Positions 11,816 to 31,092 of a stretch of DNA of 43,804 bases are shown here, in pieces; the stretch's first letter is position 1, and the number at the start of each line of letters is the position of its first letter. Source of the DNA: Klebsormidium nitens (taxonomy: Eukaryota > Plantae > Klebsormidiophyceae); NCBI GenBank assembly GCA_000708835.1, contig DF237637.1, positions 1 through 43,804 on the forward strand, written 5' to 3'. Under the pieces are notes generated by a model. That model was given only the letters and a program-made list of their open reading frames with translations, made no database searches and had not been told where the DNA came from. The position numbers and the translations under genes were made by a program.

Positions 11816-11848
11816 TGATCGAATGAGGGGGCAGGAGCAGCTTTTATA
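11816..11848 (-). promoter_or_regulatory. TATA-box core promoter, copy 2
   Basis: The minus strand reads TATAAAAGCTGCTCCTGCCCCCTCATTCGATCA, about 120 bp upstream of the ATG at 11724. Confidence 0.8.
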
Positions 11849-12684
11849 GGTACCTTTCACCAACTACTATCAACCAGAGGCTTCTATGGAAGGCCTGAGT
11901 CAGACTTTTCTTGAGTGATTCCGAAGCGGTTCGATTGAGCGATTCCGAAGCCGTTTCGAGCTCTCTCTGAAGAGAAATCCGACTCAGACGTCTGAGCGAG
12001 CTCCATGGCTGGCAAAAAATCTGACTCGAACACTTGAGCGAGCTCCACCTGGCAGCTCACTGAGGCAATTGAGCGATTCCAACGTGCTTCTGATCTGCCT
12101 CTGATCGGAAACCCTGACTAAAAGAGACTTCAGCGAGCTCCAGCTCCAGCTCAGGCGGTTGAGCGATTCCGAAGCTGAGATTCCGAACCAATGAATGGTA
12201 CGGAACTCGAAACTTTACTTTTTCGGACCACGTGGCTCTGTCCACATGCCGGCTGAACTCGGCTGAACCCCCATCATTAAATTCCGAACCTCCGAGGTCG
12301 GTTACTGTCAGACATGCCTCAGTCAGGACTCTCCGGAATCGCTCAACCGCCTGAGTTGAGCTGGAGCTCGCCAAGACTTCTGAGTCAGCTCTCTCTTCAA
12401 AGCCTGAGCTTGATTCTGGAACCGGCACCTCGGAATCAAGCTCGGAATCGCTCAACCGCATGACCTGAGCTGGAGCTCGCTCAAATGTCTGAGTCAGGTT
12501 TCTATTCAAAGCCTGAGCTTGACTCCGGAACCGTCACTTTGGGATCGCTCTTTGAGACGTCTGAGTCAGCTTTCTCTTGAGAGAGAGCTGGAAACGGCTT
12601 CGAAATCGCTCAACCGGTTCTGATTACTCAGAAAAAGTCTGACTGACACCTCTTTGGTTTGCAGCAGCAGTGCTGACCAGTATC

Positions 12685-12717
12685 TATAAAAGCAGCTCCT
12701 GCCCTCTCATTTGATCA
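12685..12717 (+). promoter_or_regulatory. TATA-box core promoter, copy 3
   Basis: TATAAAAGCAGCTCCTGCCCTCTCATTTGATCA faces the primase-helicase gene. Confidence 0.8.
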
Positions 12718-13185
12718 TTCCTCCAGCACAATCCTTTTCTTATCCCTCAAAAAGCCACTCACTAGCTCACCTCTCTTCCCAGCGACTTCCCAAAGCCAGA
12801 AAGCAGCGGCATACAAGCATGCTCTCCCCCGATCTGCATACAAAGGTAGCAAGCTGAGTTTGCCAGTTGATGAAGGGTGGTGGTGTCTAAGTTCAGAGGC
12901 GGGTGAGCTGGAAGGAGCTGCGCATCAGAGAGCCAGGTAACAGCTGTCTGTACAACTGCGTTTTCTATGACGAATTTCCCTTGATGGACAGTGCGGACAC
13001 TGAAGACAGAACTTTTCAGTTCTCGAGCATACGAAGTTTATTTTGAACCGCTTTTTGTCTTCCCTGCACTGACAGTGTACTTGTCTGTCAGAAGAAGCCA
13101 TCTTACACAAAGTCCTCTTCATGGACAGTGCGGACAGTGAAGACAAAGCTTTTTGGTGGTCTGATCTGTTTGAATTCTTTGCAGG

Positions 13186-16100
13186 GTTCGGGTGAGCGCG
13201 CGCGGCCATCAACATCAGGGGAGGCCGGACCAAACCCAATGGTGAGTCGTTTCAAAGGTTCTGAAAGGCTGCTTGCGTTTCTTATGCACGAGAATTAACA
13301 GAAACTCTGTCTTCACTGTCCCCACTGTCCATCAAGGGAAAATCGCTGATAGAAGACGCATTCGCATAGACAGAGCTGTCTTTATCTACGAAATAGGATC
13401 TTCAAAACCATGTAAAGTTTGATTGCCTAGTCTGCTCGAAAAGTCTGCATTCATTCGCGCGCGCTGACAGCATGCTTGTCTGTCAAGCGAAAAGATCTCA
13501 CACGTTTTCCCCTCATGGACAGTGCGGACACCGCACTGAAGACAGAATATTTGGTCTAACTGCTCAAAGGTTAAGGTTTTTGATGTGGACAGCATGCTTG
13601 TCTGTCAAGCGAAAAGATCTTACATAGAGTTCCCCTCATGGACAGTGCGGACGGTGAAGACAGAGTATTTGGTCTGGCTGCTCAAAGGTTAAAGTTTTTT
13701 GATGTGCAGGAGACCGCAGCTAGGGGCATGGTTGAGCGGGGTTACGTCGTCTTCTCAGCATACACCAGTTTCAACACTCAGACGGGCAAGAAGGCCATGC
13801 TCCCACCAAAGCATTGGCACGATTCTACACTGGCCAACTGCCTCAGCCCCGCATATTTTGACCCCTGCGACAATACCCTGCTGATCAACACAGCGCCTTC
13901 TGGCGTTCTCGTGTTGGATTTCGACCTTCAAGACGGGGGCATGGAGCAGCTGGCTGAGTGGGAGAGCAAGCACGGCGCATTCACGGGGGCGCGAGTGCGC
14001 ACCGGCAGTGGGGGGGTCCATCTCTACTTCTCGCATCAACGAAGCGTGGAGGCGGGATTAGATGCAGGCACACCAACGCACTTTGCAAAGCTCGCGCTCA
14101 AGATCCCGGACCCAAAAATGGGGAAGGAAACGGTGAAAAAGGTGGGGGTCGATATGCGAGGCGTGAGCTCGAATGGCATGATTGCGTGCCCTCCATCTTC
14201 CTATCAGCGGGGCGAGGAGTTTGCGCGCTACACTGTCGCAGGCGGAGGGGACCTACCAGCTGTCGATGCTCTGCCTCCCCTTCCTGGATGGTTTATTGAG
14301 ATTCTGAACGAGCGAGCTTCTTCGAAAGCAGCGGGGGGCGCGCCAAAAAGCCGTCCAGGGGCTGGGAAAGCAGCTGCGGCAGGGGCTGGGGGTACGCAGG
14401 CGCGCGCTCCGGGGAACCCGCCGGATCTTGCGGATCCAGTTCTGCAACAACAGGTGGTCGAGGTCTTGCGGGGCATGCTCAGCAGCTACGGGGACAACAG
14501 TTCTGTCTTTCGCAAGGCAGAATTGAGCACAGTTGCCGGCCCGGAAGCAGTGATCTATCACTTTGAGAACGGTAATGGGGGCCGGGCAACGTGCCCTTAC
14601 CTCAAGGCAGGAGAACGGGCGCACAGCAGCAACAACTTCGGCCTACTTCGAAGAGGAACGGAGATCACGTACGTGTGCCACAGCGGGCGGTGCAAGAGCG
14701 AGGGGCGCAGAAACAAGAAGCNNNNNNNNNNNNNNNNNNNNNNNNNNNNNNNNNNNNNNNNNNNNNNNNNNNNNNNNNNNNNNNNNNNNNNNNNNNNNNN
14801 NNNNNNNNNNNNNNNNNNNNNNNNNNNNNNNNNNNNNNNNNNNNNNNNNNNNNNNNNNNNNNNNNNNNNNNNNNNNNNNNNNNNNNNNNNNNNNNNNNNN
14901 NNNNNNNNNNNNNNNNNNNNNNNNNNNNNNNNNNNNNNNNNNNNNNNNNNNNNNNNNNNNNNNNNNNNNNNNNNNNNNNNNNNNNNNNNNNNNNNNNNNN
15001 NNNNNNNNNNNNNNNNNNNNNNNNNNTTGCAGCTGCGTTCTCAGATGCAGAACCGTTGAACAGCGAGCGGGATCGACTGTACGAGGACCGACAGCTGCTG
15101 CCCCTCTCGTTTCTACGGGAGAATCTCTCGGTAGCAGCAGGTGAGGTTAAAAGTTTCGACGAGCTGGCACGCATTCCAGTCTCCAAGAAAGGAGCGCACT
15201 GTTTGCCTTGCTGAAGTTTCGAGCAGATTCTGCGAAGGCCCCAGACAGCGGTGCTGTCTATCAAGTGTGGAGGCTTCACTTGCAAAACTGTCTTCACAGA
15301 CACCATGGACAACAAAGACGGAGGTTTCAAAAAGAATTCAAAGAGTTGATTCTGTGAATGCCCCAAACAGCGGTGCTGTCTATCAAGTGCGGACCTTCCC
15401 TTGCAAAACTGTCTTCACAGAGACCATGGACAGCAAAGGAATCGAAGAGTTGAATTCAAAGAGTTTTGGTTCCAGATTCTCGTGCCTTTTCTGGTCTCCG
15501 ATGAGACAAACGATGCTTGATTTGGCGTTAAAAAAGGTCTGCAAGCCCCCGGCGAGAGTGTACCAACTCACAACAATCTATGCAGGTGATGAAGGCGGCG
15601 CGCAGATCATCGATCGCCTGCAAACCTACACCGGCCAAAAGCTCGTCTTCTCGAACGAGAAGTGGTACGTTTTCACAGGGTCGGTGTGGAAGGCAGACCC
15701 AGGTGGGCGGGAGGCTCAAAAGGTGTGCCGTGGAGAACTCAACAAAATCAGCGCTGCGTACCAAAAGGAGACTGGGGCTGCGGTTGAGCAAGACGAGAGC
15801 GAGGATGATGATGGCAGCGAGGAAGGGCCCCCGAAGAAGAAGAAGAAGAGGACAGAAAAGCTGACCAACTTCAACTGGAACGCACGGATGTCCAACATCA
15901 TGACGACCCTGAAAGGCTATTGCCTGGATCCGGGATTCGAGAAGCTGCTCAACTCCAACAGAGACGCTCTTCCCCTGCTAAACGGCGTCATCCTCCTGCC
16001 AACTGGCGAGTTAGTACCGCACCATCCCAAGGTGAGCTTGGGTTAAGGCATTTTGCCCTTGAAAACTGCTTTGAAAACTACCCAAATATGACCGGAAGTC

Positions 16101-18040
16101 AGTCTGACAACCGACAATCTGCATATTTGCAGTTCCTGTGGTCGTTTCGTAGTTGAATACTTCGTGTAATCTACCGGTGGCCAACTTTTCAAAATCAGGC
16201 CTGGCCCTCCACATGCGTGCTCATAACCGTAAAACTTCGACTTAGTTGTATCGTTCAGTCCGCTTCAGAAAGTGCGTGAAGTTGTGCTTCAACGTAGCGC
16301 ATCGACTGAAGTGAAGGAGAAAAGAGGGATAGCATTCAACAGGCAATCTGACAACCGACACTCTACCTTTTGCAGTTCCTGTGGTCATTCGTGTTGGGGT
16401 ACAGGTGGCCTTCGACCGGTGTCCACACGCCGTTAGGCCGGATGGGCGAGTTCCTGAAGGAGATCACGCACACCCCAGAAGCTCTAGCCTATCTTCAGCG
16501 CATCCTAGGCTACGGCATCACTGGTCACATCTCCAACCAGGTCATGCTCATCATGATCGGGGAAGGTGGTGCTGGAAAGAGCCTCCTATTGACGCTCCTG
16601 AAGCGCCTTATTGGCCCGTTCTACAAGGACGTGTCAAAGGATATGTTGGTGACTTCGAAGGGGCAACGGCCGCCCAGCAAAGGAGCTGCCAACCCGGACG
16701 AAGCAGGTAATAGTTTTAGACAACGTCTGAGGAAGTTAGAGCTGTGTCTGATTCGTAATTGCATGCTAGACCGTAGAGCTTCTTTTGAAAAAGTCGAGCT
16801 GGTTTCTCATATGCGGATCTTGCAGACTTCTAAGCACTTTTCTCTTGATGTGCACGTGCGCAAGGACTGCAAGGGGTTCGAATGGCTGTGTGTTCGGAGT
16901 CGGAAGAAACCGACGAGTTTGCGGAGAGCAACTTGAAACGGCTCACCGGAGAGGCAACCATCACGAGCAGAGCGCTTTACAGTGACTATGTCACTTTTCA
17001 GACGACACAACTGGTGAGGAATAAACCACTGATCCCCTCACGGGCAGACATCCATTCATCTTTTGACTTCCTTTTGCAATCTCTGTCTTTGCTGTCCATG
17101 GTGTCTGTCAAGTACAATCTGCAAGTGAAGGTCCGCACTTGATAGACAACACCGCTGTTTGGGGGCCTTTACACAATCTGCTCGAAACTTCAGCAAGGCA
17201 AACAGTGCGCTCCTTTCTCGGAGACCGGAATGCGTGCCAGCTCGTTCAGATTCTACGAGGTGTTGAGAAGTTTTTTGTCTTTGCTGTCTGCACTGTCTTT
17301 CAAGCTAGATTCGTATAAGCATGCTTCCCTTGGTGGACAGTTACCGTGTCAACCAATGCTCAAACTTCCGCTGAAAACTCGAAAAAAACTGGAGGTGCCG
17401 GTTTACGAGCTAAATCCTTTTTGCATTTTGTCTGCAGCACATTCTCTGCACCAACTACCCGCCGCGTGCCAAGAGGTGGACCATTGCGCTGAAGCGCCGT
17501 CTGCTTACCCTGGTTTTTCCAATGCGCTTCTTCTACCCTCAAGAGGCGGGGTACGACCCGAAAAACCCACACCATGGGGTCAGAGATGATGCGCTCGAAA
17601 GCATACTGATGGCAGAGGTCGAGAAGCTGCTGGTTTTCTTGGTCATTGGAGCAAAGGACTGGTATGAGAACGGGAGAAGGCTACTTGACATGCCAGAAAC
17701 TAGCAAGAGATACATGGAGTCCTGGGAGCAGTCAAACGATCCGTTCGCAGCTTTTATGAAATACGAGGGCACCATCAACACCAAAGCATTTGAGACGTCG
17801 GAGTCTCTGATGACGGCTTACAACAACCCGGACAGGCTGGTTGACGGCGTCAGGTTTGAGGAGACAGGAGCTCCGATGATTCGCACTAGTCAGGAGTTAG
17901 CCAAGTATTGCAGAGCCCATGGTCTAGATGGTCCGGGGAAGCCTTCCGAATTGAGATTCGTAGATGCAGGCCATCAGATCAGGGGCTACCGAGGATTCAA
18001 ACTGAATAAGCCAACGGACCACAGTCGATTGGAGCGATAG
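13186..18040 (+). CDS. Intron-containing bifunctional primase-polymerase (Prim-Pol) / Zn-finger / D5-type SF3 helicase
   Basis: Predicted exons: 13186-13240 (tentative), 13710-[gap 14722-15026]-15140, 15586-16031, 16376-16706, 16865-17013 and 17438-18040, all junctions phase-compatible. Motifs: VLVLDFD, RTGSGGVHLYF, VDMRG, ACPPS (Prim-Pol); CPY..H.SNN..YVCHSGRC (Zn finger); LPLLNGVILL (D5_N); GEGGAGKS (Walker A); AVCSESEE (Walker B); ILCTNYPP (motif C); KRRL (Arg finger). Confidence 0.85.
14722..15026. other. Assembly gap (305 N)
   Basis: The run of n characters lies inside the primase-helicase gene. Confidence 1.
15159..17245. repeat. 161-bp inverted repeat pair (15159-15319 and 17085-17245)
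   Basis: Hand alignment gives roughly 85-90% identity, including an uninterrupted identical run agaaaggagcgcactgtttgccttgctgaagtttcgagcagatt. Both arms are intronic. Confidence 0.92.
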
Positions 18041-18408
18041 AGCGGCAAGCAGGCCCTTTTGCTTGACATCATTTGCCACAAGTGCGCTGTAACTACGAAC
18101 TGATTTATATGTTGATGAAAGCTTGATTCGTCATCAGGGAACGGATCCTTCCCTGATTCGAACACACACGTAAATCCAACGACTCTTTCGCGAGTGTTCA
18201 TAAACGTGCGCATGAGTGTTCTTTTTCGACCTTCCTTCAAGATTCTGTCTTCAGTTTCCATGCTGTCTATGAAGCCAAATCCCTGTACGAAGATCTATCT
18301 TGATAGACAACACATTGGCATGGCAAGCTTCCGGCGTGATGACCAGGTATGAGCCTCGTTCCGTTCCCGTTTTGGAACCATGAGCTTCGTTAACGGTTCG
18401 AACATCAT

Positions 18409-18798
18409 CTAGTCAACGGCTGCCGTTGGATTTGAGGTGGCGGTCTTCACGCATACAATCCTATTTTCAGAATCAAACTCAACGCCTGCTTCCTTCAATT
18501 TCGATATGGTCCTCGCATGCGGTTTTGTAGTTCTTCCAGTCCGAAGACGCTTGGCAGCGTCTTGTAGTAAGAGCCCGTGCTTGTGTTTCTGATACCATAT
18601 CTTCTTCCGCTCAAGCACACGCTGTTTGTTGCATCTGTAAAAATCTTGTCTCTTTAATTGAAGCTCTTTGCACCTCGGCACGCCGTCTGATGATTGAAGA
18701 GAGATTGGAAGTATTGCAATTTGAACAACTCGATGCTTCATTCCACAAAGGGTACAAGGAACTAAGCGTATGATGGTTATCTCCGCGCCGGTCTCCAT
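18409..18798 (-). CDS. Small basic protein, paralogue of 24257-24535
   Basis: ATG start with TATATAA just upstream. It has an N-terminal CxxC, and WYQKH...A.KR.R.G....P...T..KL..AG is shared with the 24535 ORF. Confidence 0.65.
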   Translation of the reverse strand: METGAEITIIRLVPCTLCGMKHRVVQIAILPISLQSSDGVPRCKELQLKRQDFYRCNKQRVLERKKIWYQKHKHGLLLQDAAKRLRTGRTTKPHARTISKLKEAGVEFDSENRIVCVKTATSNPTAAVD

Positions 18799-18864
18799 TT
18801 CGTTGAAATGTTATATAATCTACTCTTCATTCATATATTTTTTTCCAACAGATCAACGCAAAGC

Positions 18865-19215
18865 TCAGTTGTCTTCTGCCTCCTTGCATACCTTGAGAGT
18901 CCTCTTTGCCATCGATAGTAGAAGCGCTGCCTCCTCCTCGGAATACCCACCCGTCTCATGATCTGTTATACTTGCTGTGATTATGCCGAAAACATCGCCC
19001 CATGAAACGACGAATTCTTCATTACAGAGTCGATAAAGCAAAAGCAAAACGCCCTTCCGTAGCAAAGTCATGTCGATGGGAAGTCGGAGCCCTTCATCCA
19101 CGAGGCCTTCATAGCGAAGAGGTCCAAAGCTCTCAATCTCGTCGATGAACGGCAACAAGCTATATAGACGAGGGTTTGCCTGCTTTGGCACGTAGTACGT
19201 GTAGCCTCGCTCCAT
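18865..19215 (-). CDS. Hypothetical protein (116 aa)
   Basis: ATG-initiated intronless ORF tightly packed in the cassette, with normal globular composition. Confidence 0.6.
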   Translation of the reverse strand: MERGYTYYVPKQANPRLYSLLPFIDEIESFGPLRYEGLVDEGLRLPIDMTLLRKGVLLLLYRLCNEEFVVSWGDVFGIITASITDHETGGYSEEEAALLLSMAKRTLKVCKEAEDN

Positions 19216-19272
19216 TTGGATCTTTCTTTATAGAAAGGAGAAAAAAATCCATGCTCTTTAGGTCTCTGTCTC

Positions 19273-19851
19273 TCAATCTTCATCGCTGTCAACTGCAACA
19301 CATCTGAACGTTGTTATCTTGCTTCCCCGAGCCTTTCCGGTGGCTTTTGAAGTGCCTCTAGTAGCTGATTGTTTTGCTTTACCTTTATCAGTTGACTTTC
19401 TCTTGGAAGTCTGCTTTGCAGCCTTGCTCGAGGTTTTCTTTGTGCTCTCTTGCTTCTTCTTTGCCTTTGAAGCGGAAGCGTGCATCTTAACAAGCTCATC
19501 AACCGGTACCTTAGTTGCTGATGTTGAGAAGGTTCCTTCGAACGGAAGTCCAAGCGGTCGTTCACACTTTCGGATTGGGGAGATCTTCACCTCGTACCCA
19601 AATTCTTTCTTAGCCGAACCTCTGGTCGTTTCCTGTAAGAGAACATAGACAGTGCAGGGTGCTTTAGCTGCACCGTTACATTTGAGTGCCCTGAATAGCT
19701 GGCTACCCGCACGGGTGCCTGCTTGCGAAACACGTCCCCTTTCAGCATCGATCTCGAGACGAGTGTCTTCGAGAAGGCTCGAAGCATCTGATTGGTTATG
19801 GTCAAGCGCAAGAAGCACCTTAAATTTTCGTTTGTAGCATGCAGTATCCAT
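19273..19851 (-). CDS. Hypothetical protein with Lys/Ser/Ala-rich basic C-terminal tail
   Basis: ATG-initiated 192-aa ORF with the tail KAKKKQESTKKTSSKAAKQTSKRKSTDKGKAK. Confidence 0.65.
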   Translation of the reverse strand: MDTACYKRKFKVLLALDHNQSDASSLLEDTRLEIDAERGRVSQAGTRAGSQLFRALKCNGAAKAPCTVYVLLQETTRGSAKKEFGYEVKISPIRKCERPLGLPFEGTFSTSATKVPVDELVKMHASASKAKKKQESTKKTSSKAAKQTSKRKSTDKGKAKQSATRGTSKATGKARGSKITTFRCVAVDSDED

Positions 19852-20510
19852 TAGACCGGCTGTATGAATGTAAGGTCAGATAATAAACGTGGAACGAAAA
19901 TGCATCATGCTGCCTACCTTGGAGGTTGGCCCCCTGAAGCACTTCGGTCGTCTTCTTGATCTGGCAAAGTTGTTGACAGACAATTTGCAAAAGTTGCCCC
20001 TCTATGATCAGATAGTTGTCTACATGAAGCACTTTGAAAAGATGAACGACCCCAGTCACTATTCTAGAAGGGAGAGTCCGGATTTCGCGAAATTAGGACT
20101 CAAATGTGGGACCCCAAAAGCACAAAAAGCTGGGAGCTTTTGCTGGAATTGACCGCGTGTTGGGAAATCTTGTCACTTTAGAGTTTGAATTCTGGGATTG
20201 CAGCTGAAGATCAAAGATCATGTAACTGATTCTAGAATTGGAAAGGTGGTGCATCTTAGCAAACTGTGTTCCTACCTGAGGCTCTTGGATTCTAGAATCC
20301 AAACAAAGTGGGAAGTTTTTTGACCAAGTAGCAATCGTCCATCCCAAAATTCACCCAGAAAGGTTGGAAATTCGAAGACCAATTCCAGCCCCTTGATTTC
20401 GGCTGGCCGGGGGTTCTGAAGCAGACATTCCTAGGGGGTGCATCTTGAGGAGGCGTTCGTTTCAATTTCAGAATTATTGTAGATGATGTATGATATAGGG
20501 TTGCCAGTTG

Positions 20511-21581
20511 ATGGATTCGGAAGCATCCGTTCAATCGAGTACAGGATCCACATCCGACAAAGGAGGGGATAACGAAACTCTGCGACCAATTGCATCAGGT
20601 GAAGCTGCTTTGCGCAACCTGTTTCAAACGGGCAAACGGGCTGAGACAACTGTTCTACAATATCTGAACAGTGTGCGAATGATTCATACTCTAGTTACGG
20701 GCAATAAGGTGTTGCCTTCCACGTTAGATTGGATGAAGGATGCATCTATCATCATTGAAAAGCTCGACCAGGTCTACAAAAATCCTGGAACGTTCAAAAA
20801 TAAGCTGACCCCGTTAATGGTCATTGCTCACGAAAAGGGATGGGAATGCGCCTATAAGAAATACTTCGAGAGCTTCTCAGAGAAGAAGGCGGTCCAGATG
20901 AAGAAGGCCGATGAGCAAAAGGCTACCGAGAAAGAGGCTTCCAACTGGATAAGCATAGACGAGCTCAAAAGCAAAGCGGAAGAGCTCAACAGACACATCC
21001 GGAGGAACATAATGCCAAACTTAAAAGATAACGGTGCAAGTCTCAGCAGAGACGAGATAAAGTGCGTTTTCCAGCACTTGTTGATCGCAAGCAACCTTCA
21101 TGAGCCACCCAAGCGACGAGATCTGAGCGGACTTCCTCTCCAAAAAGCGGACGGAAGCTTCTACTGCGGTGAAGCCGAAAAGACGTATAGGGATACCGGC
21201 AATTGTCTACGAGAAAGCACAAGTGGGGAGTTTTCGCTTGTGCTTAAAACTTATAAGACGTCGAAAAAGTACGGGAAGAAAGAGTTTGAGCTTTCACAGC
21301 GTCTCAATAACTACATTCGACGGTCGATCGAGTTGGTTCCTAGGGGTTTTTTGTTATCGCGGCTTGGGGATACGAATCAAGCTATGTCCGATAACTATTT
21401 GACCAAGTTCATCTCCTCAATTACCTTTCCAAACGGAAAGCGATTGAATCAGAATCATCTGAGGCATCTTTACATTAGCGAACACTTCAAAAACGATCAT
21501 TCGATTGCTGAGAGGAAGCAGTTAGCTGAGAGGATGTTGCACGACTGGGGGACAGCAATGGTTACATACGAGAGAAAGTGA
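20511..21581 (+). CDS. Tyrosine recombinase/integrase of the type seen in Polinton-like viruses and virophages
   Basis: Intronless ORF with catalytic motifs in the expected order: PPKRRD (R), YKTSKKYG (K), NHLRHLYIS (R), LAERMLH (H) and terminal TYERK (Y nucleophile). Confidence 0.85.
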   Translation: MDSEASVQSSTGSTSDKGGDNETLRPIASGEAALRNLFQTGKRAETTVLQYLNSVRMIHTLVTGNKVLPSTLDWMKDASIIIEKLDQVYKNPGTFKNKLTPLMVIAHEKGWECAYKKYFESFSEKKAVQMKKADEQKATEKEASNWISIDELKSKAEELNRHIRRNIMPNLKDNGASLSRDEIKCVFQHLLIASNLHEPPKRRDLSGLPLQKADGSFYCGEAEKTYRDTGNCLRESTSGEFSLVLKTYKTSKKYGKKEFELSQRLNNYIRRSIELVPRGFLLSRLGDTNQAMSDNYLTKFISSITFPNGKRLNQNHLRHLYISEHFKNDHSIAERKQLAERMLHDWGTAMVTYERK

Positions 21582-21608
21582 TCAGCATTGAGCCAGAGTT
21601 GAAGAATA

Positions 21609-24077
21609 TCACCCCGATGAGATCAGTAAAGTTGGGTCAGAAGCCCAGGATCCGTCCCAATGGACTTCATCGACTCTCAAACGAACTTCTTGCAGCCGTT
21701 TCTCCAGTTCGTTCCTAGTTGGAAAGATCAAGCCGCGACCACAGGTGTCTTTGTAACCATCCAGTCCAAGTGTCCGTTTGATACGACCAATCAGCACATC
21801 CTTCTGCTGTGGCGGATCCTCTCTTGCGCCCTGATTGTCTATGAATGACCTGTAAGTTCGGAAGATGGTGGCACTTAGCACCTTGGTCTTTGAATCTGAT
21901 GAAAAGTTGCCGTTATCTAGCAACCCGCAAATCATCTTTGCCCAAAAGGGAATCGAGTGCTCTCTTAAAGCCGAACTCCACTTGCTTTTTGGGATCTGCT
22001 TGGGGTTCCAGGTGTTGATGCCTTCTCTTGACATCAAGTACCGGTAGAAGTGTTCAGCTGTAGTGGTAGTGAGGCTTTCACAAAGCCGATCAAAGTACGG
22101 TTGATCTCCGATTCTAGAGTCGGAGGCCTCAAAGCATGCATACCTTCTGTCTGTCGCTTCTTTCTTGATGGGCCAGTCCTCGTTCGTATTAAACCAGTAA
22201 TTTGCAAGGTCGGGTACTTGAAGGGGATCGATTCCTTTCTTTTCAAGGATCGTCGAGTCTTGGGTGATCAGGCTTTTCAACCGATTATTGCTTTTGTAGG
22301 CTCCACCCCAACTGCTCACTTCATCGAAGCATACCAAAAGAAGGTTTGCGGCTATTCCGTTGAACTTGCCAATGACCTTTTCCATATCGTTGCAGTACAG
22401 ATAGTATCGCGATCCGATGACATGCTTACCCACAAAGTCAGTGATTATGCTTTTGCCTGCGCCTTGGTCAGACCTGAAGACCAAGGCTGTTCCGATCTTC
22501 TTGTACGGCTTCTGCACAAGATGAGCTAACCAGTTGAGAATGTATTCCGCTACAGCAGGATCGTTGTCAGCAAGTACTTCGTTGATGTGCTTCAAGAGAA
22601 GATCAATTTGTTTCATGTCAACAGGTTGATTCGCTTCGTGAGCCTGGAAGGGAAAGCCGTAGAACAGGTTGTAGTTATCAGGTGAAACCATACGAGAGTT
22701 CGTTTCGAAGACTACCTTGTTGAGAGTCCTTCTCGCTGATGACTTGCACCACACCTTCCCAAGGTTGCCGATTTTGACACTATCCAGGTTGAATGATTCG
22801 GACCGTTCCAGAAACTCAGCTCTTGTACGAAGGATGCTGTCATTTGGCACCCAAGCAGTACCTCTTTCAATGAAGATGGTCTCGATAAAGAGTACTTTTG
22901 AGCTGCCGTCTAGAACGCAGAAGTAGTGGTTCATTGTGTCGATAGCAATCTGTGTGAGTTGCTGACATAGTTGCTGATACTGCACTTTGTCCACAGTGCT
23001 TTTGGCACTGATTATAATTCTCTCAGCTTCTTCAATAGGGCGCAGATCAAAGCGTGCTTTTGAAGTCAAAAGCGAACGCCAATGGTGCAGCCCGAGAAAA
23101 ACTCTCGGTCGTTCTTTGCATCCTGTTGACAAACAGCGGTACTCCATGCAGATCCCGTTGCAGATGATGCTGAAACTGTTGCTCGTGTGTTCCTCTCCGT
23201 AAGGGCAGATCCTGCTGTCCTTCACTCTGAACTTTAAGATGGCTTCCTCATCTCGACGCTTGATGCCTCGGTAGAAACTTGTTTGATCGTTGCATCTACT
23301 TCGCAGTAGCTGCGTTGCAACTTGGATTGCCTTTTCGGCCTCGACGGAAGAGGTTGTTTGCTGAGACGAGAGTTCTTTGGTGATTGTCTTGTCCGCTTTT
23401 GCTTTGCTGACAATTGATGTATCATTGCTGGAGGGTTTTGCCGACCCTTGGGCAGCTTGCTTTGTGGAGTCTTGAGAGTTAAGGATTTCTACGAGCCACA
23501 ACGGAAGGCAGGCAAGCTTCGTCTTCCAAGGAGAGTTTAGCCATCTGTATGAATGCTCTTCACCGTCACGAATGATGGTAGTTGGGGGTGCGAAGCAGAT
23601 GCCATTGCCTCTGAAATCGATGGTCGTTTGGGTGGAGTTGATGCATAGCTTGGTCGCGTCTGCCTTCCGTTCAAGCCCGGGGGAATCCGCTTTGAAGTAG
23701 TAGTGCAAGCCGCCACTCTGTGTTTCGGCTGTCCAGGTGATGGGTTCGCCGTGGTCTTGTGTCAATCGTTTCCAGACATCAAGACCATTAGCGACGGCTT
23801 TGCTTTCATTCAACTTGGGCAAGTCGATATCAACCATGACAATGCTATTTGGTCCCGGTCGTCCGCAGAGCAGGGCAAGGGCATTCTTGTCGGAACAATC
23901 ACGAATAAGATCTTCGTGCAACCCCCAGGAAGCCTCATCCACGATGCTTGAGTAAGAGCACCTAAAGTTGCTTGCGTCCTTCTTCCTTTCCTTTTTGTTC
24001 CATGTAAGCTTGAGCGTAACCGGCAGGAGATGAAGGCTCCGATACGATGAGATGCTTTCATTGAGGTCCGGATTCAT
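21609..24077 (-). CDS. Intronless Prim-Pol / Zn-finger / NrS-1-like (DUF5906-type) SF3 helicase, 822 aa
   Basis: First ATG at 24077. Motifs: VMVDID, ETQSGGLHYYF, IDFRG, FAPPT (Prim-Pol); CPYGEEHTSN..YRCLSTGC (Zn finger); SDQGAGKS (Walker A); VCFDEV (Walker B); WFNTNED (motif C); DRRY (Arg finger). Confidence 0.9.
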   Translation of the reverse strand: MNPDLNESISSYRSLHLLPVTLKLTWNKKERKKDASNFRCSYSSIVDEASWGLHEDLIRDCSDKNALALLCGRPGPNSIVMVDIDLPKLNESKAVANGLDVWKRLTQDHGEPITWTAETQSGGLHYYFKADSPGLERKADATKLCINSTQTTIDFRGNGICFAPPTTIIRDGEEHSYRWLNSPWKTKLACLPLWLVEILNSQDSTKQAAQGSAKPSSNDTSIVSKAKADKTITKELSSQQTTSSVEAEKAIQVATQLLRSRCNDQTSFYRGIKRRDEEAILKFRVKDSRICPYGEEHTSNSFSIICNGICMEYRCLSTGCKERPRVFLGLHHWRSLLTSKARFDLRPIEEAERIIISAKSTVDKVQYQQLCQQLTQIAIDTMNHYFCVLDGSSKVLFIETIFIERGTAWVPNDSILRTRAEFLERSESFNLDSVKIGNLGKVWCKSSARRTLNKVVFETNSRMVSPDNYNLFYGFPFQAHEANQPVDMKQIDLLLKHINEVLADNDPAVAEYILNWLAHLVQKPYKKIGTALVFRSDQGAGKSIITDFVGKHVIGSRYYLYCNDMEKVIGKFNGIAANLLLVCFDEVSSWGGAYKSNNRLKSLITQDSTILEKKGIDPLQVPDLANYWFNTNEDWPIKKEATDRRYACFEASDSRIGDQPYFDRLCESLTTTTAEHFYRYLMSREGINTWNPKQIPKSKWSSALREHSIPFWAKMICGLLDNGNFSSDSKTKVLSATIFRTYRSFIDNQGAREDPPQQKDVLIGRIKRTLGLDGYKDTCGRGLIFPTRNELEKRLQEVRLRVDEVHWDGSWASDPTLLISSG

Positions 24078-24256
24078 CTTAGGGCTGGACACCCCCTATG
24101 ATAAGTACTAAGGAAAAAAGTTTTGATCGGAATCTGAACGCACTGAAATTCTGACAGTGAGCTAGGCCCCTTACTGCACACTGAGTACAATTGGATCATC
24201 TGAGAGGGTAAACTTTGAGGAACGTGCTATGGATAAGCGCACATCATTTGAAGATA

Positions 24257-24535
24257 CTAGCATGTCTCACTTATTGGCCTTGAGTGGCGGTTGCCAAGTT
24301 CTTGCACATATCCGGCGTCTACAAGCTTTGCTAAAGTAGAGGGCCGAAGAGTCTTGCCATTCGAATACCTAATCAAAGCTTTACGCAAGCAGATTTCGGC
24401 CTTAGCCTTGTCGTAATGCTTTTGAGACCAAAGTCGATATTTGTCGAGATTGGTCTGCCGATAGCGCATCTCATACAGCCGCCGCTGATGATTGGCATCA
24501 TGATTTCTCGTCTCGGAAACAACTGACATAGACAT
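24257..24535 (-). CDS. Small basic protein, paralogue of 18409-18798
   Basis: ATG-initiated. YRQTNLDKYRLWSQKHY..LRKALIRYSNGKTLRPSTLAKLVDAG aligns with the 18798 ORF. Confidence 0.65.
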   Translation of the reverse strand: MSMSVVSETRNHDANHQRRLYEMRYRQTNLDKYRLWSQKHYDKAKAEICLRKALIRYSNGKTLRPSTLAKLVDAGYVQELGNRHSRPISETC

Positions 24536-24621
24536 CTAGCAACGTGCTTTCGTCTACCTTATTAGACGAAAAGAAGATACTTGCATGCCCCCTGACGAAT
24601 CGATGCTCAAGCTTCGACACC

Positions 24622-24798
24622 TTGGACACCTTGACCGCTCGCTATTTCGTCATGTGAGGGGTTTTTGAAAATCGATATCCATGACTTGCAAATAGCTGCC
24701 AAGGTGTCCAACGTGCCAGGATGGTGAAATCGTGTAGTGCACTCGTAGTGCAATCATGCTGTTATGTATTATCATCAAGTATAATAAAGAGGTGCCAG
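24622..24798 (-). repeat. ~180-bp TGGCACC element, copy downstream of the KDZ gene; contains a hairpin at 24622-24711
   Basis: The reverse complement aligns with 30301-30475 (ctggcacct..tatacttg..aatacata..tggcac..tcatg..ttttcaaaaa.cccct). It holds a perfect 12-bp inverted repeat ttggacaccttg (24622-24633) / caaggtgtccaa (24700-24711). Confidence 0.75.
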
Positions 24799-24894
24799 TG
24801 TGTGTTCTAAGTCTTGTTCCTCGTCCCTACATGAACGATAGCTCCCCACACGCTTGCGGGAAAGCTCAACAGCTATCTATCAACACATGGTCTA

Positions 24895-27800
24895 TCACCT
24901 GTACAAGAGAGCTGCGCGAACTGCCGGCGACCACTGATCAACCCTGGCTGCTATTCTGATCTTCTGGTCATCAACACGTGTCAACTCTGCGTTGCGCCCG
25001 CTCACTACGTTAGCTAGAATGATCATGAAGGACTCGAGAGCGGAAAACCAAGCAAGCACCTTGAACTTTATCAGGAAGGAGTTGACGCTCTCCACCGCTG
25101 AAGTGTTAACCCAGCGCACAGCGTCGTATAAATCAGGATTGTACTGAGGGCCACACTTGTGCGCCTCCGCGCCAGTCTTCTGAAAGTGGAACCTGCACGC
25201 GCGTAATTGGACAGTTTGGACACGGGACGGTTGCTGACGTCATTAGAAACGGGGCTCCCAGAAAGTCTCGGTGGTAAAAGCTCAGACACTTGGACACGGG
25301 ACGGCTGCTGACGTCATCAGAAACGGGCTCCGAGGAAGATATGGCAAGAGCTTGGATAGCTGGACAAAGGACGGTTGCTGACGTCATCAAAAACGGGATT
25401 CGAGAAAGATCTGGCAAAAGCTTGGACAGCTGGACAAGGGACGGCTGCTCACGTTATCACAACCGGGCTCCCAGAATCTGGCAAAAGCTTGGACAGCTTG
25501 GACACGGACGACAAGTGGCAGAATGACGCTCAAATGTATCCTGGAAAAGTGTTGATTATCTCGTCCTAGACTAACAAACAATCATTCGAAACCATGGACG
25601 CGTATGCGGTTTTTGTACTTGCCGGTCAACCAGGCATCGCATGTCTGCAAAAAATGCAGGCTCCCTCCTCATGCTGTACGCGCGCAGCTTGCAGGCGTTG
25701 TCGTAGAAGAGAAAGGAAGGCAGATTGTGCCGCTGGAGGCGGGTGTACAGCACCGCGAACGGATCACGAGGAGACTCCCCCCGGAGCATCGCATGGAACC
25801 CGTAGATCACCCTGTGAGAGCAGCAGAAGACGAACCCCCCCTTTGTGTGCTTCTGCAGCCGCTTGCCCGCCTTCTCACTCTTGGCCGCCGCAACCTTGGC
25901 ATCAAACTCCCCGACAGTGAGACCGCTCTTACAGCGGTGCTCCTCGCTGCTCTCGACCGCCAGACCAAGGTCATTTTCAAACGGCTTGTACTGGGGCAGG
26001 GGCCGTTTCTGCTCCCAACTGGGGAGGGGGTAGCAGCCGAGCGCGTTCTGCTCTTGGCAGTAAGGGTGGTCTTTGGGGAGCGCTTCGAGAAGCCGTCCGT
26101 CCGGGGAGAGACCCAGCCGATCGTGCAGCAGCTCGCGTTCGGCTTGGTTAAGGGCATACTCGAGGGGGGGTGGGGGGCGCAGAGCCTCGACGCCGGGGAG
26201 CAGCCGGTTTGCTCTTCCTCTCCAGAACGTGTAGCTCTCCTCTCTCTCTTCGTTCCAAGACCCTGGGACCTCCCGTCGCAACTGCAGCAGCCAAACGCAG
26301 GCATCCAACCCTTCGATAGCAGACAGCGCCCATCCGGCTCGACCGACCCCCAGCCCGACCGCCCCGCGTCCGAACAGCGTCAGTCGGTATAGATGATGGA
26401 GCGTGGGAAAAAAGAAGGCCGGAAACACTTCGTCGTAGTTGTCCAGCACTCGACGAAGGATGGGCGCATGCTCTGCCAGCACGGCCTTGCCCCCCTGGTC
26501 TACTGGACCCCCCAACAGTATCGCCCGGACAACAGCAAGCGCCCGCCAATGCTGGATCAGATTGCTGTCGTCGCTGACGGTTTGAGGGGACCCCAGAGCG
26601 TACAGCGGTTCCGCCCACCACTTTCGCGGCGACCGCACTCGACCGTTATTGGCGCCCGGAGTCTCCCCCCGGATCCCCTCCAACAGCAGCCGTGCAGCTC
26701 GGTTCTTCGATCGAATCTGCCCGATCTGCTCCTGCAGAAGGCGCCTCCTCCAGTGCAGCAGGATGGGCTCTGCGTCCGCATCGTCCGGATTGGCGACGAA
26801 GTCGGAGACGAGTTCCACGTCATCGCGATCCAGCGCAACCTAGGTAGAAGTCAAAGATGTCAGACGCCCTTCGTCCAGGTTTACCGAGCTCTTCATAGGC
26901 ATATCATTCCGAAAACCTAGACCGATTTCAAGGCTCCACTCGAAGACCTTGTTGCGCTCTTTTTAGTCCCACTGCAACAACCTTGGCTAAGCATCAGAAG
27001 GATTCATCGCGCATATACGGAGCAGACTGGCATCAAAGAGCGTGCGCAACTTGCGCTCGGATCGCTCCAAAGTCAACGTCAGATTCAACTCTAAGGTTGC
27101 CACAGAGACTGAAAAGCTCCGCAGTTTGAGTTTAGGGTCCATAACTCTGCTTGAAGAGAGTTATGTCGTGCACATTTGTCAGAACTCTAGCAGTTTTGGC
27201 GAGGGTGTTGTCCGTTCAGTGTGGGAGGGGAAAAGGGTCTGGAGCCACCTTCTGGCACCTTTCTTTATTACTTATAATGTAAGTGTATATAGGAATGGTA
27301 CACACTTTTCAATGGTTTGGCACCATGGCACCATGGCACCTATTTTCAATCATGGAACTTTCCATCAAGGAACTTTCAATCATAAAACACCTGAACGAAT
27401 AGAAAACAAGAGGCGCCAGTGCCATGGTGCCAGTGGGTGGGAAACTTACAAAGATGTTTTTGATCACAAGATTTGTTCCACCTACCAGCAGCTCTTGGAA
27501 TTCGCCCTCGCTCAGCTGCGCGCCCAGGTCCGGGTCCTTCGGATGATGCTGGCTGTACCGCGCCAGCAGAGCCCGCAGCTCCGGCTGGTGGATCAGGCGC
27601 CGCTTCAGCCCCCGCCCCTCCAATGCAGTCGCGCTGAAGTTCACACCGGCTTCCATGTGCTTGACGACAGTCTCCCCCGAACTGTTCCGGCTTGGAGCCG
27701 TGAAAGGCCGGAGTTCGCTTGCCGCCGTCCCCGCCAACCCGCCTTTCGATCTGCTACCGTCCGCGCACGCTAGCCCGGCGATACCATCGCAGAGCAGAAC

Positions 27801-30800
27801 GTCTGGGTGAGGGCCACAGAGGCTGCAGCACTCGAGGATGCTCTGCCCACACAGCCGGAAGAAGGCCAAGCAGACCTTTCGCCAGGACTCCTCGCTGAGG
27901 AGGGGAGCGGCCCCCGGCGAGAAGCGCCCACGAACCGATTTCTGTGCGCTGATCAGACCGCTGAAGGCTGATCCGGTCCCTTGAACAATACGGAGCAGAA
28001 GCTGGCACGACTCTTGCGTGACGATTATGGCCCTGCTCCACGCGTACAGGCCGAGCGCTTCCCCGTTGAAGTGGACGGTGTGCTTCACCGGGCATCTGCA
28101 GCAGTAGATCCGAACCTTGACCTGCGAGGATGTGCGCGCGCTTAGCCAACATAATTCATTTCGGCTCTGCACTCGTCCACGTTCTGTCTGAGGCACAGTT
28201 TCTGCTGAAACTAGAGTGTGCTCAAACCGTCGTCCAGTCTTTGCCAATGTTTGCCAAACCGATCGGATGCAAAAACATGGACAACTTTTCGAAGCTCTTC
28301 GCTCAGATAACCGGAGTCTCGTATGCGCTCTGCCACAGTGAGCGCGCACAAGTCTGTGTCTCTGATGCAACTTGAACCGCACCAGACCAATCGGAATGAG
28401 ACACGTGGAAACGCCTCGTGCTGACACGTGGCAGGCACCCTCGCTTCAAGCTGAGAGGCTCTCAGTTGCAACAAGAACGAGCACCTTCTCGCTTTTACTT
28501 TGGCAAAGGTTTGCATCACGTACCTCTTGCGACCATTGCAGTGAGTGCACGCATGCGCTCTGCAGCAACGCTTGCCACGCGGTGCCACAGGGAGCCAGTT
28601 CAGGCTTTGGGCAGGGTGCAGACAAGCACCCCACGGCGCTCAGCTCCTCGAAGTCCCTCTGCACGAGCTCGCTCACTCTCACTGGCCGCCGCAGCGACGT
28701 CACCAGCGGATCGTGCACCTCGAAGCTGTCAGTCGGCCGGACCAGCTTGGGGAGCTCGAGCTGCACACTTTTCGCGTCCAAGGGCAGTACGGGAGCCCAG
28801 AGCGGATTCCCGGCAACATGGGGGCAAGCCAAAGCCGGGCATACGCAGCTTGCGCACACTCTGGTTACGCCGCTCATGGCGTCCCTTCCGTCCCCTCCAC
28901 TCAACGTCTGCGGCGCGGTGTGCGTGGGCACAACCTCCTCCTTTTCAGCTTGCAGCGCGCCTGTTTCCTTCAGCTGCCCACCGCCCTCCTCTTCCTGAGC
29001 TGCCCAAAATGCTTTAGACCTCTTTGGCCCCCGTCCAGAGCAACGGTCTCCCGACTCCTGTCTTCCTCTCTTTCCCCCGACCTCGTTCGTATTCGTTTCG
29101 AGTTTGCAGCACCCGTCCTTGCAAGTCCCTCGCTCAAAATCAACCCCTCCGAAGAGCTGCTGGTGCTGCTTACAGAAGCACGAGGCCCCTTTGCAGCTTG
29201 CATCATGAGGCTGGCCCACGCAAAGCTCCATCAGGTACCGTTCGACCGAAGACATGTCGGACGACACTTCTGCCGAGCCTCCCTCTTTTGACTCCGGCGC
29301 CCCTTTTCTCTCCTCCTTCCTGTCCGTTTCGAGCAGCCAGGCACGTGCCCTTGCCAGTTGATCCTCGGAGAACAAGCAGCCGCTCAATATCTCGATGCTT
29401 CTGCCCGGACAGAGAGCGTCTTTGACGGCTCGTATGTGGTCGCAGTCTCCAGACGTGCTGCAGCCCGACAGCTTGCCGCCCTCGCAGTACCACTCCTCCC
29501 GCACGCCCTCATTCTTCAAATGCACCATCGTCCGCTTGGGCGAAGGGGAAGCCGCGTTCCAGTAGACGCCAAAGACCCGCTCAGGCCCTCTGCTGCAGGG
29601 AACCTCGATCACCCGCCTGCCCTTCTGGAGCGCAACGTGGTTGGCTTGCTGGCGCGACCCCAAGGCTTCAAGCGCCAACTTGTGAACGCATGGAGCATCC
29701 GGACCCAGGCGCCCGCGGTCGCAGGTGCAGCTGGCCTTCCCCAGGGTGTCCCAATGGACCGTTTCGAGCAGGGCTTTGTCTTTGCTCGGTCGTCCAAGCG
29801 GCTTTGGCCTGCCATAGTTGTGGTTCCAGACGGTCATGAGGTAGGCCAGGCCAGGGGAACCCTCCTTTCCCCGTTCAGAACCGCCCCCCAGCTCATAGAT
29901 TGAGCATGTTCCGTTCTGAATGCCAGCAAGGAACCTCGTCGCCTGAGAGGTGAGAGAAGAAACTGCGGCGCCATTGGCATGGCAGCGCTCCTTGCTGTCT
30001 GAACTCTCGGCACCTGACGAAGAGGGTTCTTCCTGCAGGCAACAGCATTTGAGTAAGCCGAGCATAAAGTAACAGGTAAGCTAGCCGCAAAAGGCACCAA
30101 TAAAAAGGCAGCAATATCTAGGCTCTAAAAAACATGTGGTACTTGCCGGCCACAACACAGTGTGTAGCTCTAGGTTCAGTCAGGTCGCAAATACAATTTT
30201 GCACTTGAAAAGAAATTTGAGCGAGCTAAGTTTCTTGTACAGTTGTTCTCTGTGTGGTGAATATGCAAAGGCAAGAGAAAGAATGGTGGCCTGACACCTT
30301 CTGGCACCTTATTTATATACTTGTAAAATGCAATACATACACACATTTGCTCTGCATGACTTATGTGGCTTGGCACCTATGGCACATTGGCACCTCATTT
30401 TCAATCATGAAACTTTCCTTTTTCAAAAAACCCCTGACTGAGAAAAAGCAAACAGTCGTGCTGTCGGTGGTGCCATCCAAACTGAGACCACTTTCAGGGC
30501 ACGTCGTCAGATTTCTGAGGGGTCAAAGCCAAATCAGAACCTCACTGCACATTCAAGGACTCACGTGCAACTTGCGTTTGACGTTTGCTCCAGCAGCTTT
30601 TCCCCTGTTGAGCGCGCTCTTTGCAGCGGATTTGGCTACCTTGCCTGTAACTGATTGTTTGCTTATTGCTTCCTGCGCTGCCAAGCCTTCTACATAGCTG
30701 CTTGTGAGCTCTTTGACCTGCTTCCACGGAGCGTTCTGCGATTCACGCTGGAACCACGTCTCAGCTACCTGCTTTTGCTGAACTGTCACTGAGGTCTCAG

Positions 30801-31092
30801 CCAGATGAACGCTGCCGGACCAGCGTTGCACGCATGAAAGACACAATGGCTGAACCCGCTGTTTGCATTTCACGGCTGAGGAGATGGCAAAACCCCTGAG
30901 AGACTGTTGGAATTTGCGGAAAGTTATCCTATGATTGACCAGGAGGGGCTGTCTGCAGAGCACGCATTTGCTAGCTACAGGCGTTTCACTGGATAGAAGG
31001 GTCGGATCAACAATGTATCGTCCAGTCTGCAAACTCTTCTGGTCCTCAAAATCTAGTCTAAGAGTTGGGGGGTCCCTCTTCTGAGATGGCAT
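24895..31092 (-). CDS. KDZ (Kyakuja-Dileera-Zisupton) transposase with SWIM and CxC4-type Cys clusters, ~1395 aa, 5 exons
   Basis: Exons 31092-30565, 30032-28524, 28121-27486, 26839-25623 and 25192-24895 join in frame with no stop. Motifs: SWIM CTCD..PCVH; CGTAW..RIYCCRC..FNGEALGLY; CSLCGPHPDVLLCDG (D); FCCSHRVIYGF..GES; YDNAC (D); VDRFHF..HKC..Y..NTSAVESVN (E). Confidence 0.9.
25207..25515. repeat. ~70-bp tandem repeat (about 4.3 units) inside the GC-AG intron of the KDZ gene
   Basis: Units start at ~25216, 25290, 25361, 25431 and 25498 with TGGACA..GGACGG(T/C)TGCTGACGTCAT..AAACGGG. Confidence 0.9.
27252..27433 (+). repeat. ~180-bp TGGCACC element in KDZ intron 3
   Basis: It starts ctggcacc and ends ggtgccag (8-bp inverted termini), with an internal tggcacc triplet followed by ttttcaatcatggaactttcc as in the 30301 copy. 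Confidence 0.75.
30301..30475 (+). repeat. ~180-bp TGGCACC element in KDZ intron 1
   Basis: caccttctggcacct start shared with the 27252 copy, a tggcac triplet, ttttcaatcatgaaactttcc, and an end at ggtgcca. Confidence 0.75.

What the first reader, a model, noticed from the sequence alone, without database searches (positions are those of the whole stretch)
18409..24535. Candidate new capsid-less integrative replicon: tyrosine recombinase + Prim-Pol/NrS-1-like helicase cassette in a eukaryotic genome
Seen: an intact-looking tyrosine recombinase lies tail-to-tail (27 bp apart) with an intronless Prim-Pol/Zn-finger/SF3 helicase, alongside small basic ORFs at virus-like gene density. Known: this recombinase + primase-helicase pairing typifies Polinton-like viruses, virophages and phage satellites. 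Prokaryote-style Prim-Pol fused to an NrS-1-like helicase is a self-priming replication module. No double jelly-roll capsid, FtsK-HerA ATPase, pPolB or long TIR was recognised in the window. Inference: a minimal self-replicating element that excises as a circle and integrates via its recombinase, i.e. a satellite- or plasmid-like element in an alga or plant.
Basis: partly seen in the sequence, partly recalled or inferred. Interest (0 to 1): 0.88.

Follow-up and report, generated by a model that had tools for sequence, protein, structure and literature searches.

The report
Capsid-less viral replication module in alga
An algal chromosome carries an intact recombinase gene beside an intact DNA-copying (primase-helicase) gene of the kind used by small integrating viruses, in several diverged versions and with no recognisable capsid gene nearby; the pair likely belongs to a larger virus-derived mobile element that would copy and re-insert itself without making virus particles.

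Summary
[quoted passage not shown] No capsid or packaging ATPase was detected among all 148 reading frames of 85 aa or more. The pairing is not chance: three Klebsormidium nitens gene models join a paralogous recombinase to a paralogous helicase, and public DNA runs hold several diverged variants. A second, intron-bearing primase-helicase lies on the left. The recombinase plus AEP-helicase pairing is standard in PLVs, and K. nitens has seven PgVV-group capsid loci whose linkage to this module I could not test. Best reading: an old PLV-derived replication-integration module, now capsid-free, inside a larger composite mobile island (confidence 0.5). New variant of a known kind; interest 0.5.

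The parts
20511..21581 (+). Tyrosine recombinase, 356 aa, intronless; virophage/PLV (OLV11-like) family; predicted catalytic R202, K249, N315 (His position), R318, H344, Y353
21609..24077 (-). Prim-Pol (AEP) + Cys/His Zn-binding segment + NrS-1-like SF3 helicase (DUF5906), 822 aa, intronless
24257..24535 (-). ORF92, basic; paralog of ORF129; resembles a basic tail fused to the C-terminus of four environmental recombinases of the same family (likely DNA-binding accessory)
   Evidence: 33% over 60 aa with ORF129; phmmer E 3e-5 to 7e-3 to P0182, P0207, P0123, P0107 in a 235-protein set
18409..18798 (-). ORF129, basic; paralog of ORF92; its 3' end marks the only candidate left edge of the shared module (18412-18426)
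   Evidence: X5 contig stops matching at 18426 and an X1/X2 joint lands at 18412
18865..19215 (-). ORF116, acidic, no family; conserved in order in the X5 contig
   Evidence: table 8 record 17
19273..19851 (-). ORF192, Lys-rich C-terminal half, no family
20285..20302 (.). Perfect 18-bp palindrome 209 bp upstream of the recombinase, with a related half-site at 20228; candidate binding site or origin, role untested
   Evidence: blastn E 5e-6 within the 661-bp intergenic stretch
25198..25510 (.). 70-bp tandem repeat, about 4.2 copies, between cassette and transposase; shared with X5
25574..30080 (-). Probable KDZ-type transposase gene in three frames (SWIM-like motif recalled, CxC4, KDZ); looks disrupted near its 3' end; multi-variant and co-covered with the cassette
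   Evidence: KDZ E 0.0016 and CxC4 E 0.004, both below Pfam cut-off
13638..18040 (+). Second primase-helicase (Prim-Pol + D5_N + P4/D5-type helicase) split by repeat-derived introns; neighbour, membership of the same element uncertain (not covered in X5 at 85%)

Best explanation
The recombinase and the primase-helicase are the likely replication-integration module of a Polinton-like virus lineage that has shed its capsid genes and now likely persists as part of a larger (at least 13 kb, about 18.4-31.4 kb) multi-copy mobile island in a Klebsormidium-like streptophyte alga. Shown: both genes are whole, paired at several loci, chromosomal, and lack a detectable capsid or ATPase neighbour. Inferred mechanism: the recombinase would cut the element out as a circle and re-insert it; the Prim-Pol would prime and the SF3 helicase unwind the circle so that it is copied, probably with host polymerases, before re-insertion; ORF92/ORF129 would act as DNA-binding accessories of the recombinase; neighbouring genes (KDZ-type transposase, second primase) were likely gained by tandem insertion and are carried along in at least some copies.
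For: Recombinase family has 1679 clusters at E<=0.001; its profile hits recombinases of a virophage contig and three PLV-like contigs at E 1e-65 to 1e-104; closest predicted viral structures are proteins of algal giant viruses, with a virophage protein at rank 13. Three K. nitens gene models (P0015, P0223, P0226) begin with a recombinase N-half (profile E 1e-25 to 1e-38) and continue as the same helicase family, head-to-tail. The two trees split alike: window lineage versus the K. nitens fused lineage, each with 99-100% SH-aLRT, with matching divergence (recombinase 28-35%, helicase 35-38%) (quick trees, no test of congruence). A 9547-bp X5 contig keeps ORF129-ORF116-ORF192-recombinase in order. 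In X1, 351 of 598 contigs laid on 10500-30400 are under 95% alike, and cover is many-layered from 18328 to 31607 while the host gene lies on one exact contig of depth 23. No capsid/ATPase hit in 148 of 148 frames of 85 aa or more, nor with 54 ORFs of four viral contigs as queries. Recombinase-AEP pairing and mobile replicase modules are reported for this virus group (10.64898/2026.10.13.758929).
Against: No element ends, att sites or circular joint found (joints listed in 21 and 37 are only the best supported, 38 and 101 not shown). No listed contig bridges 24988-25098 in X5, so cassette-transposase linkage there is inferred from depth classes only. The 6.4 kb left of the cassette in X5 is unlike the window, so the island's left part is not conserved. 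Exact-match X1 contigs of the window's copy have depth 24-30, close to 23 for the host gene: no sign of an amplified episome. The major X5 variant has two single-base indels in the primase, so some copies are decayed. Pfam missed two of three presumed capsid ORFs and the presumed ATPase of PLV-like contig L002, and no PgVV-group capsid profile was tested; K. nitens has 7 PgVV-group capsid loci (PMC10120064 Table S5). The host lineage is inferred from named homologs only.
Confidence: 0.5

Rival explanations
1. Ordinary endogenous PgVV-group Polinton-like virus: this copy is a fragment that lost its capsid module, while other copies of the family still carry MCP, penton and ATPase.
For: K. nitens has 7 contigs with PgVV-group MCP genes (PMC10120064 Tables S1, S4, S5). 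The recombinase is the most widespread information-processing gene of PgVV-like PLVs (10.1101/2022.07.28.501842). Prim-Pol beside this recombinase family occurs on capsid-bearing contigs L002 and L004.
Against: Both enzymes are whole while no trace of a morphogenetic gene is found on either side within 43.8 kb, a host gene closing the right side. Close relatives of neither protein were found in IMG/VR (word-based scans of limited sensitivity). One K. nitens recombinase-helicase locus lies on a 5744-bp record, too short to tell.
Confidence: 0.25
2. Stand-alone minimal replicon of about 6 kb: recombinase + primase-helicase + small ORFs excise as a small circle; the neighbours are unrelated insertions in a repeat-rich spot.
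For: A possible left edge at 18412-18426 in two organisms. The gene pair recurs in another orientation in K. nitens, as expected of a small modular unit. In X1 only one contig covers 24535-24734 at 85% (depth 24.3) against 139 summed at 24078. The cassette is lower in G+C (0.46-0.50) than both neighbours (0.56-0.63).
Against: No direct or inverted repeat longer than 10 bp between the two flanks. X5 continues through the right linker with 18 other letters in 1013 bp and on into the transposase region.
Confidence: 0.13
3. Cargo of a giant KDZ-type DNA transposon: the DDE-type transposase moves the island, and the recombinase and primase are passengers or helpers.
For: KDZ and CxC4 hits in adjacent frames, a subterminal-like 70-bp tandem repeat, shared many-layered cover to about 31.6 kb. 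Parallel: 50-kb intron-poor repeats of Amoebidium with a Plavaka transposase and tyrosine recombinases (PMC11244446).
Against: Both hits are below Pfam cut-off; no TIR pair found between candidate ends; the transposase looks disrupted here while recombinase and primase are whole; the recombinase-helicase pairing is kept across lineages only 28-38% alike, which passive cargo would not explain.
Confidence: 0.1
4. Assembly chimera or contaminant prokaryotic satellite DNA.
For: Scaffold has a 305-N gap; no single public contig spans the whole stretch; the helicase has 463 phage matches.
Against: Exact X1 contigs bridge the left junction (17726-19672) at chromosomal depth; the phage matches shown are 23-28% identical and cover under half of the protein; no plasmid, PHROG or prokaryote-genome relative; the named close relatives are K. 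nitens proteins.
Confidence: 0.02

Closest known systems
PgVV-group and other Polinton-like viruses / virophages with OLV11-like recombinase and AEP-SF3 primase-helicase (PMC4642659; PMC10120064; 10.1101/2022.07.28.501842)
   Same: Same recombinase family; recombinase paired with an AEP-helicase; intronless, gene-dense; integrated in an algal genome; circular intermediate predicted for such recombinases.
   Different: No MCP, penton, packaging ATPase or TIR detected; the helicase is of the NrS-1/DUF5906 type and forms its own 10-row clade whose named members are K. nitens proteins; flanked by a KDZ-type transposase.
Mobile replicase modules of Polisuviricotina and transpovirons (10.64898/2026.10.13.758929, section 13)
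   Same: Replication (plus integration) genes without a morphogenetic module; the recombinase-AEP association is reported there as strong.
   Different: The passages read describe modules nested in viruses or giant-virus genomes, often without integrase; here a recombinase + AEP-SF3 pair is multi-variant in a cellular genome.
'Plavaka giant repeats' of Amoebidium (PMC11244446)
   Same: Large intron-poor clusters joining tyrosine recombinases and a transposase of the group described with KDZ.
   Different: No primase-helicase is mentioned for them in the passages read; different transposase; homology to this element not tested.
Cryptons and Starships (eukaryotic recombinase transposons; features recalled, Starship papers seen in listing only)
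   Same: Capsid-free DNA elements moved by a tyrosine recombinase.
   Different: They lack a dedicated primase-helicase; no DUF3435 or Crypton-type Pfam hit here.
Phage satellites (PICI, P4-like) and pipolins (recalled)
   Same: Integrase + self-priming replicase logic.
   Different: Eukaryotic host; the recombinase has no PHROG or plasmid match; analogy, not kinship.

Membership tests
Polinton-like virus | Double jelly-roll major capsid protein | tested here: not met
   No hit in 148 of 148 frames of 85 aa or more or with L001-L004 capsid ORFs as queries. Caveat: Pfam found 2 of 4 presumed MCPs in the control; no PgVV-group profile tested; window only.
Polinton-like virus | FtsK-HerA/A32 packaging ATPase | tested here: not met
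   No Pox_A32 hit; presumed ATPases of L001-L004 find nothing in the six frames; control found 1 of 2.
Polinton-like virus | Minor capsid (penton) protein | tested here: inconclusive
   No hit, but pentons diverge fast and only a virophage penton served as positive control.
Polinton-like virus | Terminal inverted repeats around 15-30 kb | tested here: not met
   None around the cassette or the wider island.
Polinton-like virus | OLV11-like tyrosine recombinase (common, not universal) | tested here: met
   Family profile hits recombinases of virophage and PLV-like contigs at E 1e-65 to 1e-104; fold hits include Aureococcus virus and Qinghai Lake virophage proteins. OLV11 itself was not compared.
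Polinton-like virus | Capsid module linked to other copies of this family | not testable with these tools
   No genome held; collection scans blank.
Transpoviron | Linear episome with TIRs that depends on a giant virus | tested here: not met
   Chromosomal depth and host-gene neighbour; no TIR. Helper dependence not testable.
KDZ transposon | KDZ transposase with CxC domain | tested here: inconclusive
   Two hits below cut-off in adjacent frames.
KDZ transposon | TIRs and TSD enclosing the cassette (8-bp TSD for Zisupton, PMC12730594) | tested here: inconclusive
   None found between the candidate ends tried; true ends unknown.
Crypton / Starship | Recombinase of the Crypton or DUF3435 type with short direct repeats at the ends, no replicase | tested here: not met
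   No such Pfam hit in 113 family members; replicase present; no end repeats. Features recalled.
Phage satellite (PICI/P4) | Prokaryotic host and phage-type integrase | tested here: not met
Any tyrosine-recombinase integrative replicon | att sites and an excised circle | tested here: inconclusive
   No att-like repeat; spaced inverted arms 18 overlapping hits against 2-12 in 20 shuffles; no circular joint among listed joints of assembled contigs, which drop rare forms.

The most novel reading that the evidence does not exclude
An ancient family of capsid-free, self-priming, recombinase-integrating DNA elements native to streptophyte algae: a eukaryotic counterpart of integrative plasmids that descends from PLV replication modules, has split into at least three lineages, never carries a capsid, and builds large islands by capturing other mobile genes such as a KDZ transposase and a second primase.
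Probability: 0.3. Interest if true: 0.75.

Novelty: new variant of a known kind. Interest (0 to 1): 0.5.

Why it matters
The transition from small DNA virus to capsid-free self-replicating transposon is much discussed but has few concrete cellular examples with a tyrosine recombinase and an AEP primase. A multi-copy family in a culturable alga close to land plants would make it testable: ends, target sites and circles can be read from long reads, and the two enzymes are whole. It also flags a blind spot: capsid-based screens for endogenous viruses miss these loci, and gene predictors fuse the two genes into false spliced models. If capsids prove linked in other copies, it is only a PLV fragment and of low interest.

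Tried and rejected
No whole genome held, so copies and flanks could not be aligned. Scans for related loci were blank: recombinase in viral contigs and metagenomes; helicase in viral contigs, metagenomes and prokaryote genomes; these are word-based and show no absence. Three deep alignments were too divergent for the locus scan. Search for longer, fused recombinases found none (79; weak, the three K. nitens fusions were found instead). Single-sequence fold was useless (pLDDT 35). ESM Atlas gave no answer. No RNA holder listed. Iyer et al. 2014 was not held; KDZ background is recalled. Ax_dynein_light hit on the recombinase (E 0.004, below cut-off) rejected as noise. Protelomerase reading of the recombinase (prompted by the 18-bp palindrome) rejected: TelA ranks 49-50 with TM 0.38 against Cre 0.55-0.59. 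Equal record length (9907 bp) of recombinase piece P0211 and helicase P0011 hints at one contig but was not checked and is not counted. Six of ten listed variant sites in the two genes' best-supported rows plus one more fall on third codon positions (7 of 10); too few and pre-selected to count as a selection test. The P0004-P0007 recombinase lineage could not be tied to a helicase. Eight literature searches (listings, top 20 rows at most) showed no paper describing this element in Klebsormidium; subscription papers and bioRxiv supplements were not visible, and the Bellas supplement file was cut, so a prior description there cannot be excluded.
Full report
1. Observation. The six ORFs cover 84% of 18409-24535. 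The first protein has no credible family hit alone, but it has 7 close relatives at 42-81% and a family of 1679 clusters. A profile of 113 members hits solved integrases and Xer recombinases, 17 of 113 members hit Phage_integrase, and the model (pLDDT 92) matches Cre along its length. R202, K249, R318, H344 and Y353 are conserved; the His of the usual H-x-x-R motif is Asn here and Asn, Ser, Cys or other residues in relatives, a family trait rather than damage. The second protein is Prim-Pol plus DUF5906, with best solved match 6K9C/6K9E (that these are the NrS-1 helicase is recalled, and UniRef names the K. nitens relatives 'NrS-1 polymerase-like helicase'). ORF92 and ORF129 are paralogs and resemble a basic tail fused to four environmental recombinases of the same family (weak scores in a small set), which ties them to the recombinase.

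2. Setting. The window is eukaryotic: an intron-bearing LD-carboxypeptidase gene lies at about 32200-34880. The only named close relatives of the helicase are Klebsormidium nitens proteins, so a Klebsormidium-like streptophyte alga is inferred; no genome was held. The cassette is not isolated. On its left is a second primase-helicase of D5/P4 type with repeat-filled introns (13638-18040). On its right are a 70-bp tandem repeat and a probable KDZ-type transposase (two sub-threshold hits).

3. Do the two genes travel together? Yes. Three K. nitens gene models start with the N-half of a paralogous recombinase and continue as a paralogous helicase, head-to-tail. Quick trees of both proteins separate the window's lineage from that lineage with 99-100% support, at matching depth (44 and 30 rows, chosen from the best hits; the careful recombinase tree did not finish). 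In run X5, of another organism, one 9547-bp contig keeps ORF129, ORF116, ORF192 and the recombinase in order up to 21557. In X1, the organism closest to the window, 351 of 598 contigs laid on 10500-30400 are under 95% alike; cover is many-layered from 18328 to 31607, while the host gene lies on one exact contig. Summed depth is no copy number; it shows several diverged variants. X1 and X2 are one sample and may be the window's source.

4. Where are the ends? No repeat longer than 10 bp joins the flanks, and spaced inverted arms are near shuffle level. An X5 contig crosses 23972-24988 with 18 other letters in 1013 bp, another covers 25098-25629, and a minor variant of depth 27-33 recurs over primase and transposase alike; no listed contig bridges 24988-25098. 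On the left, X5 stops matching at 18426 and an X1/X2 joint lands at 18412, the one hint of an edge; the D5-type gene is not covered in X5. Against a simple large unit, X1 shows a single contig at 24535-24734, and the cassette is poorer in G+C than both neighbours. No circular joint is listed, and the window's own copy sits at chromosomal depth (24-30 against 23).

5. Is a capsid missing? In the window, yes as far as tested: 148 of 148 frames of 85 aa or more gave no capsid or A32 hit, and 54 ORFs of a virophage contig and three PLV-like contigs found only the recombinase. The control shows the limit: Pfam found the virophage MCP, penton and ATPase, but only one of three presumed capsid ORFs and not the presumed ATPase of L002. 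A PgVV-group profile was not tested, and this matters: Bellas et al. list 7 K. nitens contigs with such capsid genes (PMC10120064; passages, supplement index and matching rows seen, file cut). K. nitens also holds giant-virus core genes (PMC5294986, passages). Whether these loci are linked to the module could not be tested; all scans for close relatives with context were blank.

6. Mechanism. Shown: two whole enzymes with the motifs for strand exchange, priming and unwinding, paired at several loci in a chromosome. From established knowledge: tyrosine recombinases integrate circular donors (PMC4642659, passages; PMC12220804, passages). Inferred: excision as a circle, self-primed copying, re-insertion, accessory binding by ORF92/ORF129, and growth of the island by tandem insertion. 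I put 0.5 on a capsid-free PLV-derived module within a larger island, 0.25 on a fragment of an ordinary PLV, 0.13 on the stand-alone 6-kb replicon, 0.10 on KDZ cargo and 0.02 on artefact.

7. Comparison. It works like the replication-integration half of a PLV but fails the capsid, ATPase and TIR tests in this window, so it is not filed as one. A 2026 preprint reports a strong recombinase-AEP association in these viruses and proposes that replicase modules move on their own (10.64898/2026.10.13.758929; passages and section 13 read, supplements closed). Amoebidium has 50-kb repeats joining recombinases and a Plavaka transposase (PMC11244446, passages). PLV capsids can escape first-pass detection (PMC11296320, passages). 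Zisupton-type ends are described in PMC12730594 (passages); PMC5890265 (passages) and 10.1101/2022.07.28.501842 (passages) were read for context. Phage-satellite kinship is not supported: no PHROG or plasmid match for the recombinase, phage helicase matches shown at 23-28%, and Prim-Pol also sits beside this recombinase in capsid-bearing contigs. Three unchecked notes of this scan describe capsid-less primase elements in other protists; they are leads, not support. Eight searches showed no description of this element (listings only).

8. Verdict. Real, recurrent and undescribed as far as searched; a new variant of a known kind. The concept has precedent, and the two decisive facts, element ends and capsid linkage in other copies, are open. 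Interest 0.5; 0.75 if it proves to be a capsid-free family with defined ends and circles (probability 0.3).

Noticed in passing
window 11765-12769, and 120-440: 1-kb imperfect inverted repeat that looks like a divergent promoter: repeated TGAGTCA motifs and a shared TATA-containing motif at 11848 (-), 12685 (+) and again at 405 (+). It faces a 150-aa ORF (11275-11727, -) matching phrog_38666 at E 5e-22 and the intron-bearing primase gene.
   Followed up: partly
window 12970-17340: The intervening sequences of the D5-type primase gene are built from one repeat family, including a 186-nt inverted pair at 88% (15159-15342 / 17062-17245) and a copy at 18244; possibly introner-like insertions into a gene of viral type.
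   Followed up: no
window 9117-10358 (+): Intronless JmjC-domain ORF (below Pfam cut-off) with a Cys/His-rich tail; JmjC genes are enriched in viral insertions of Amoebidium (PMC11244446).
   Followed up: no
window about 31680-31850 and about 36280: Short very high-copy repeat (summed depth 3460 against 23 in X1) with a 37-nt inverted repeat and CCCTAA motifs, at the border between island and host gene.
   Followed up: no
window about 32200-34880 (+): Intron-bearing LD-carboxypeptidase (Peptidase_S66) gene, a peptidoglycan-type enzyme; single exact contig in X1.
   Followed up: no
window 24776-24805, 27247-27270, 30294-30323: A shared TATA-like motif occurs three times around the transposase region, once inverted, with a 51-nt direct repeat at 27313 and 30366.
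   Followed up: no
P0015, P0223, P0226: Public K. nitens gene models named as NrS-1-like helicases are likely false fusions of a recombinase N-half to the neighbouring helicase gene; a true fusion is not excluded.
   Followed up: partly
P0017, P0227, P0228: Related NrS-1-like helicases (40% over a third of the length) occur in a transcriptome of the amoeba Copromyxa protea, so similar replicases are expressed in another eukaryote.
   Followed up: no
L002 1-14260, L004 1-15717: PLV-like contigs where a Prim-Pol is fused to a DEAD/ResIII-like helicase next to the same recombinase family; L002 has three consecutive capsid-sized ORFs, one with a Capsid_N hit.
   Followed up: partly
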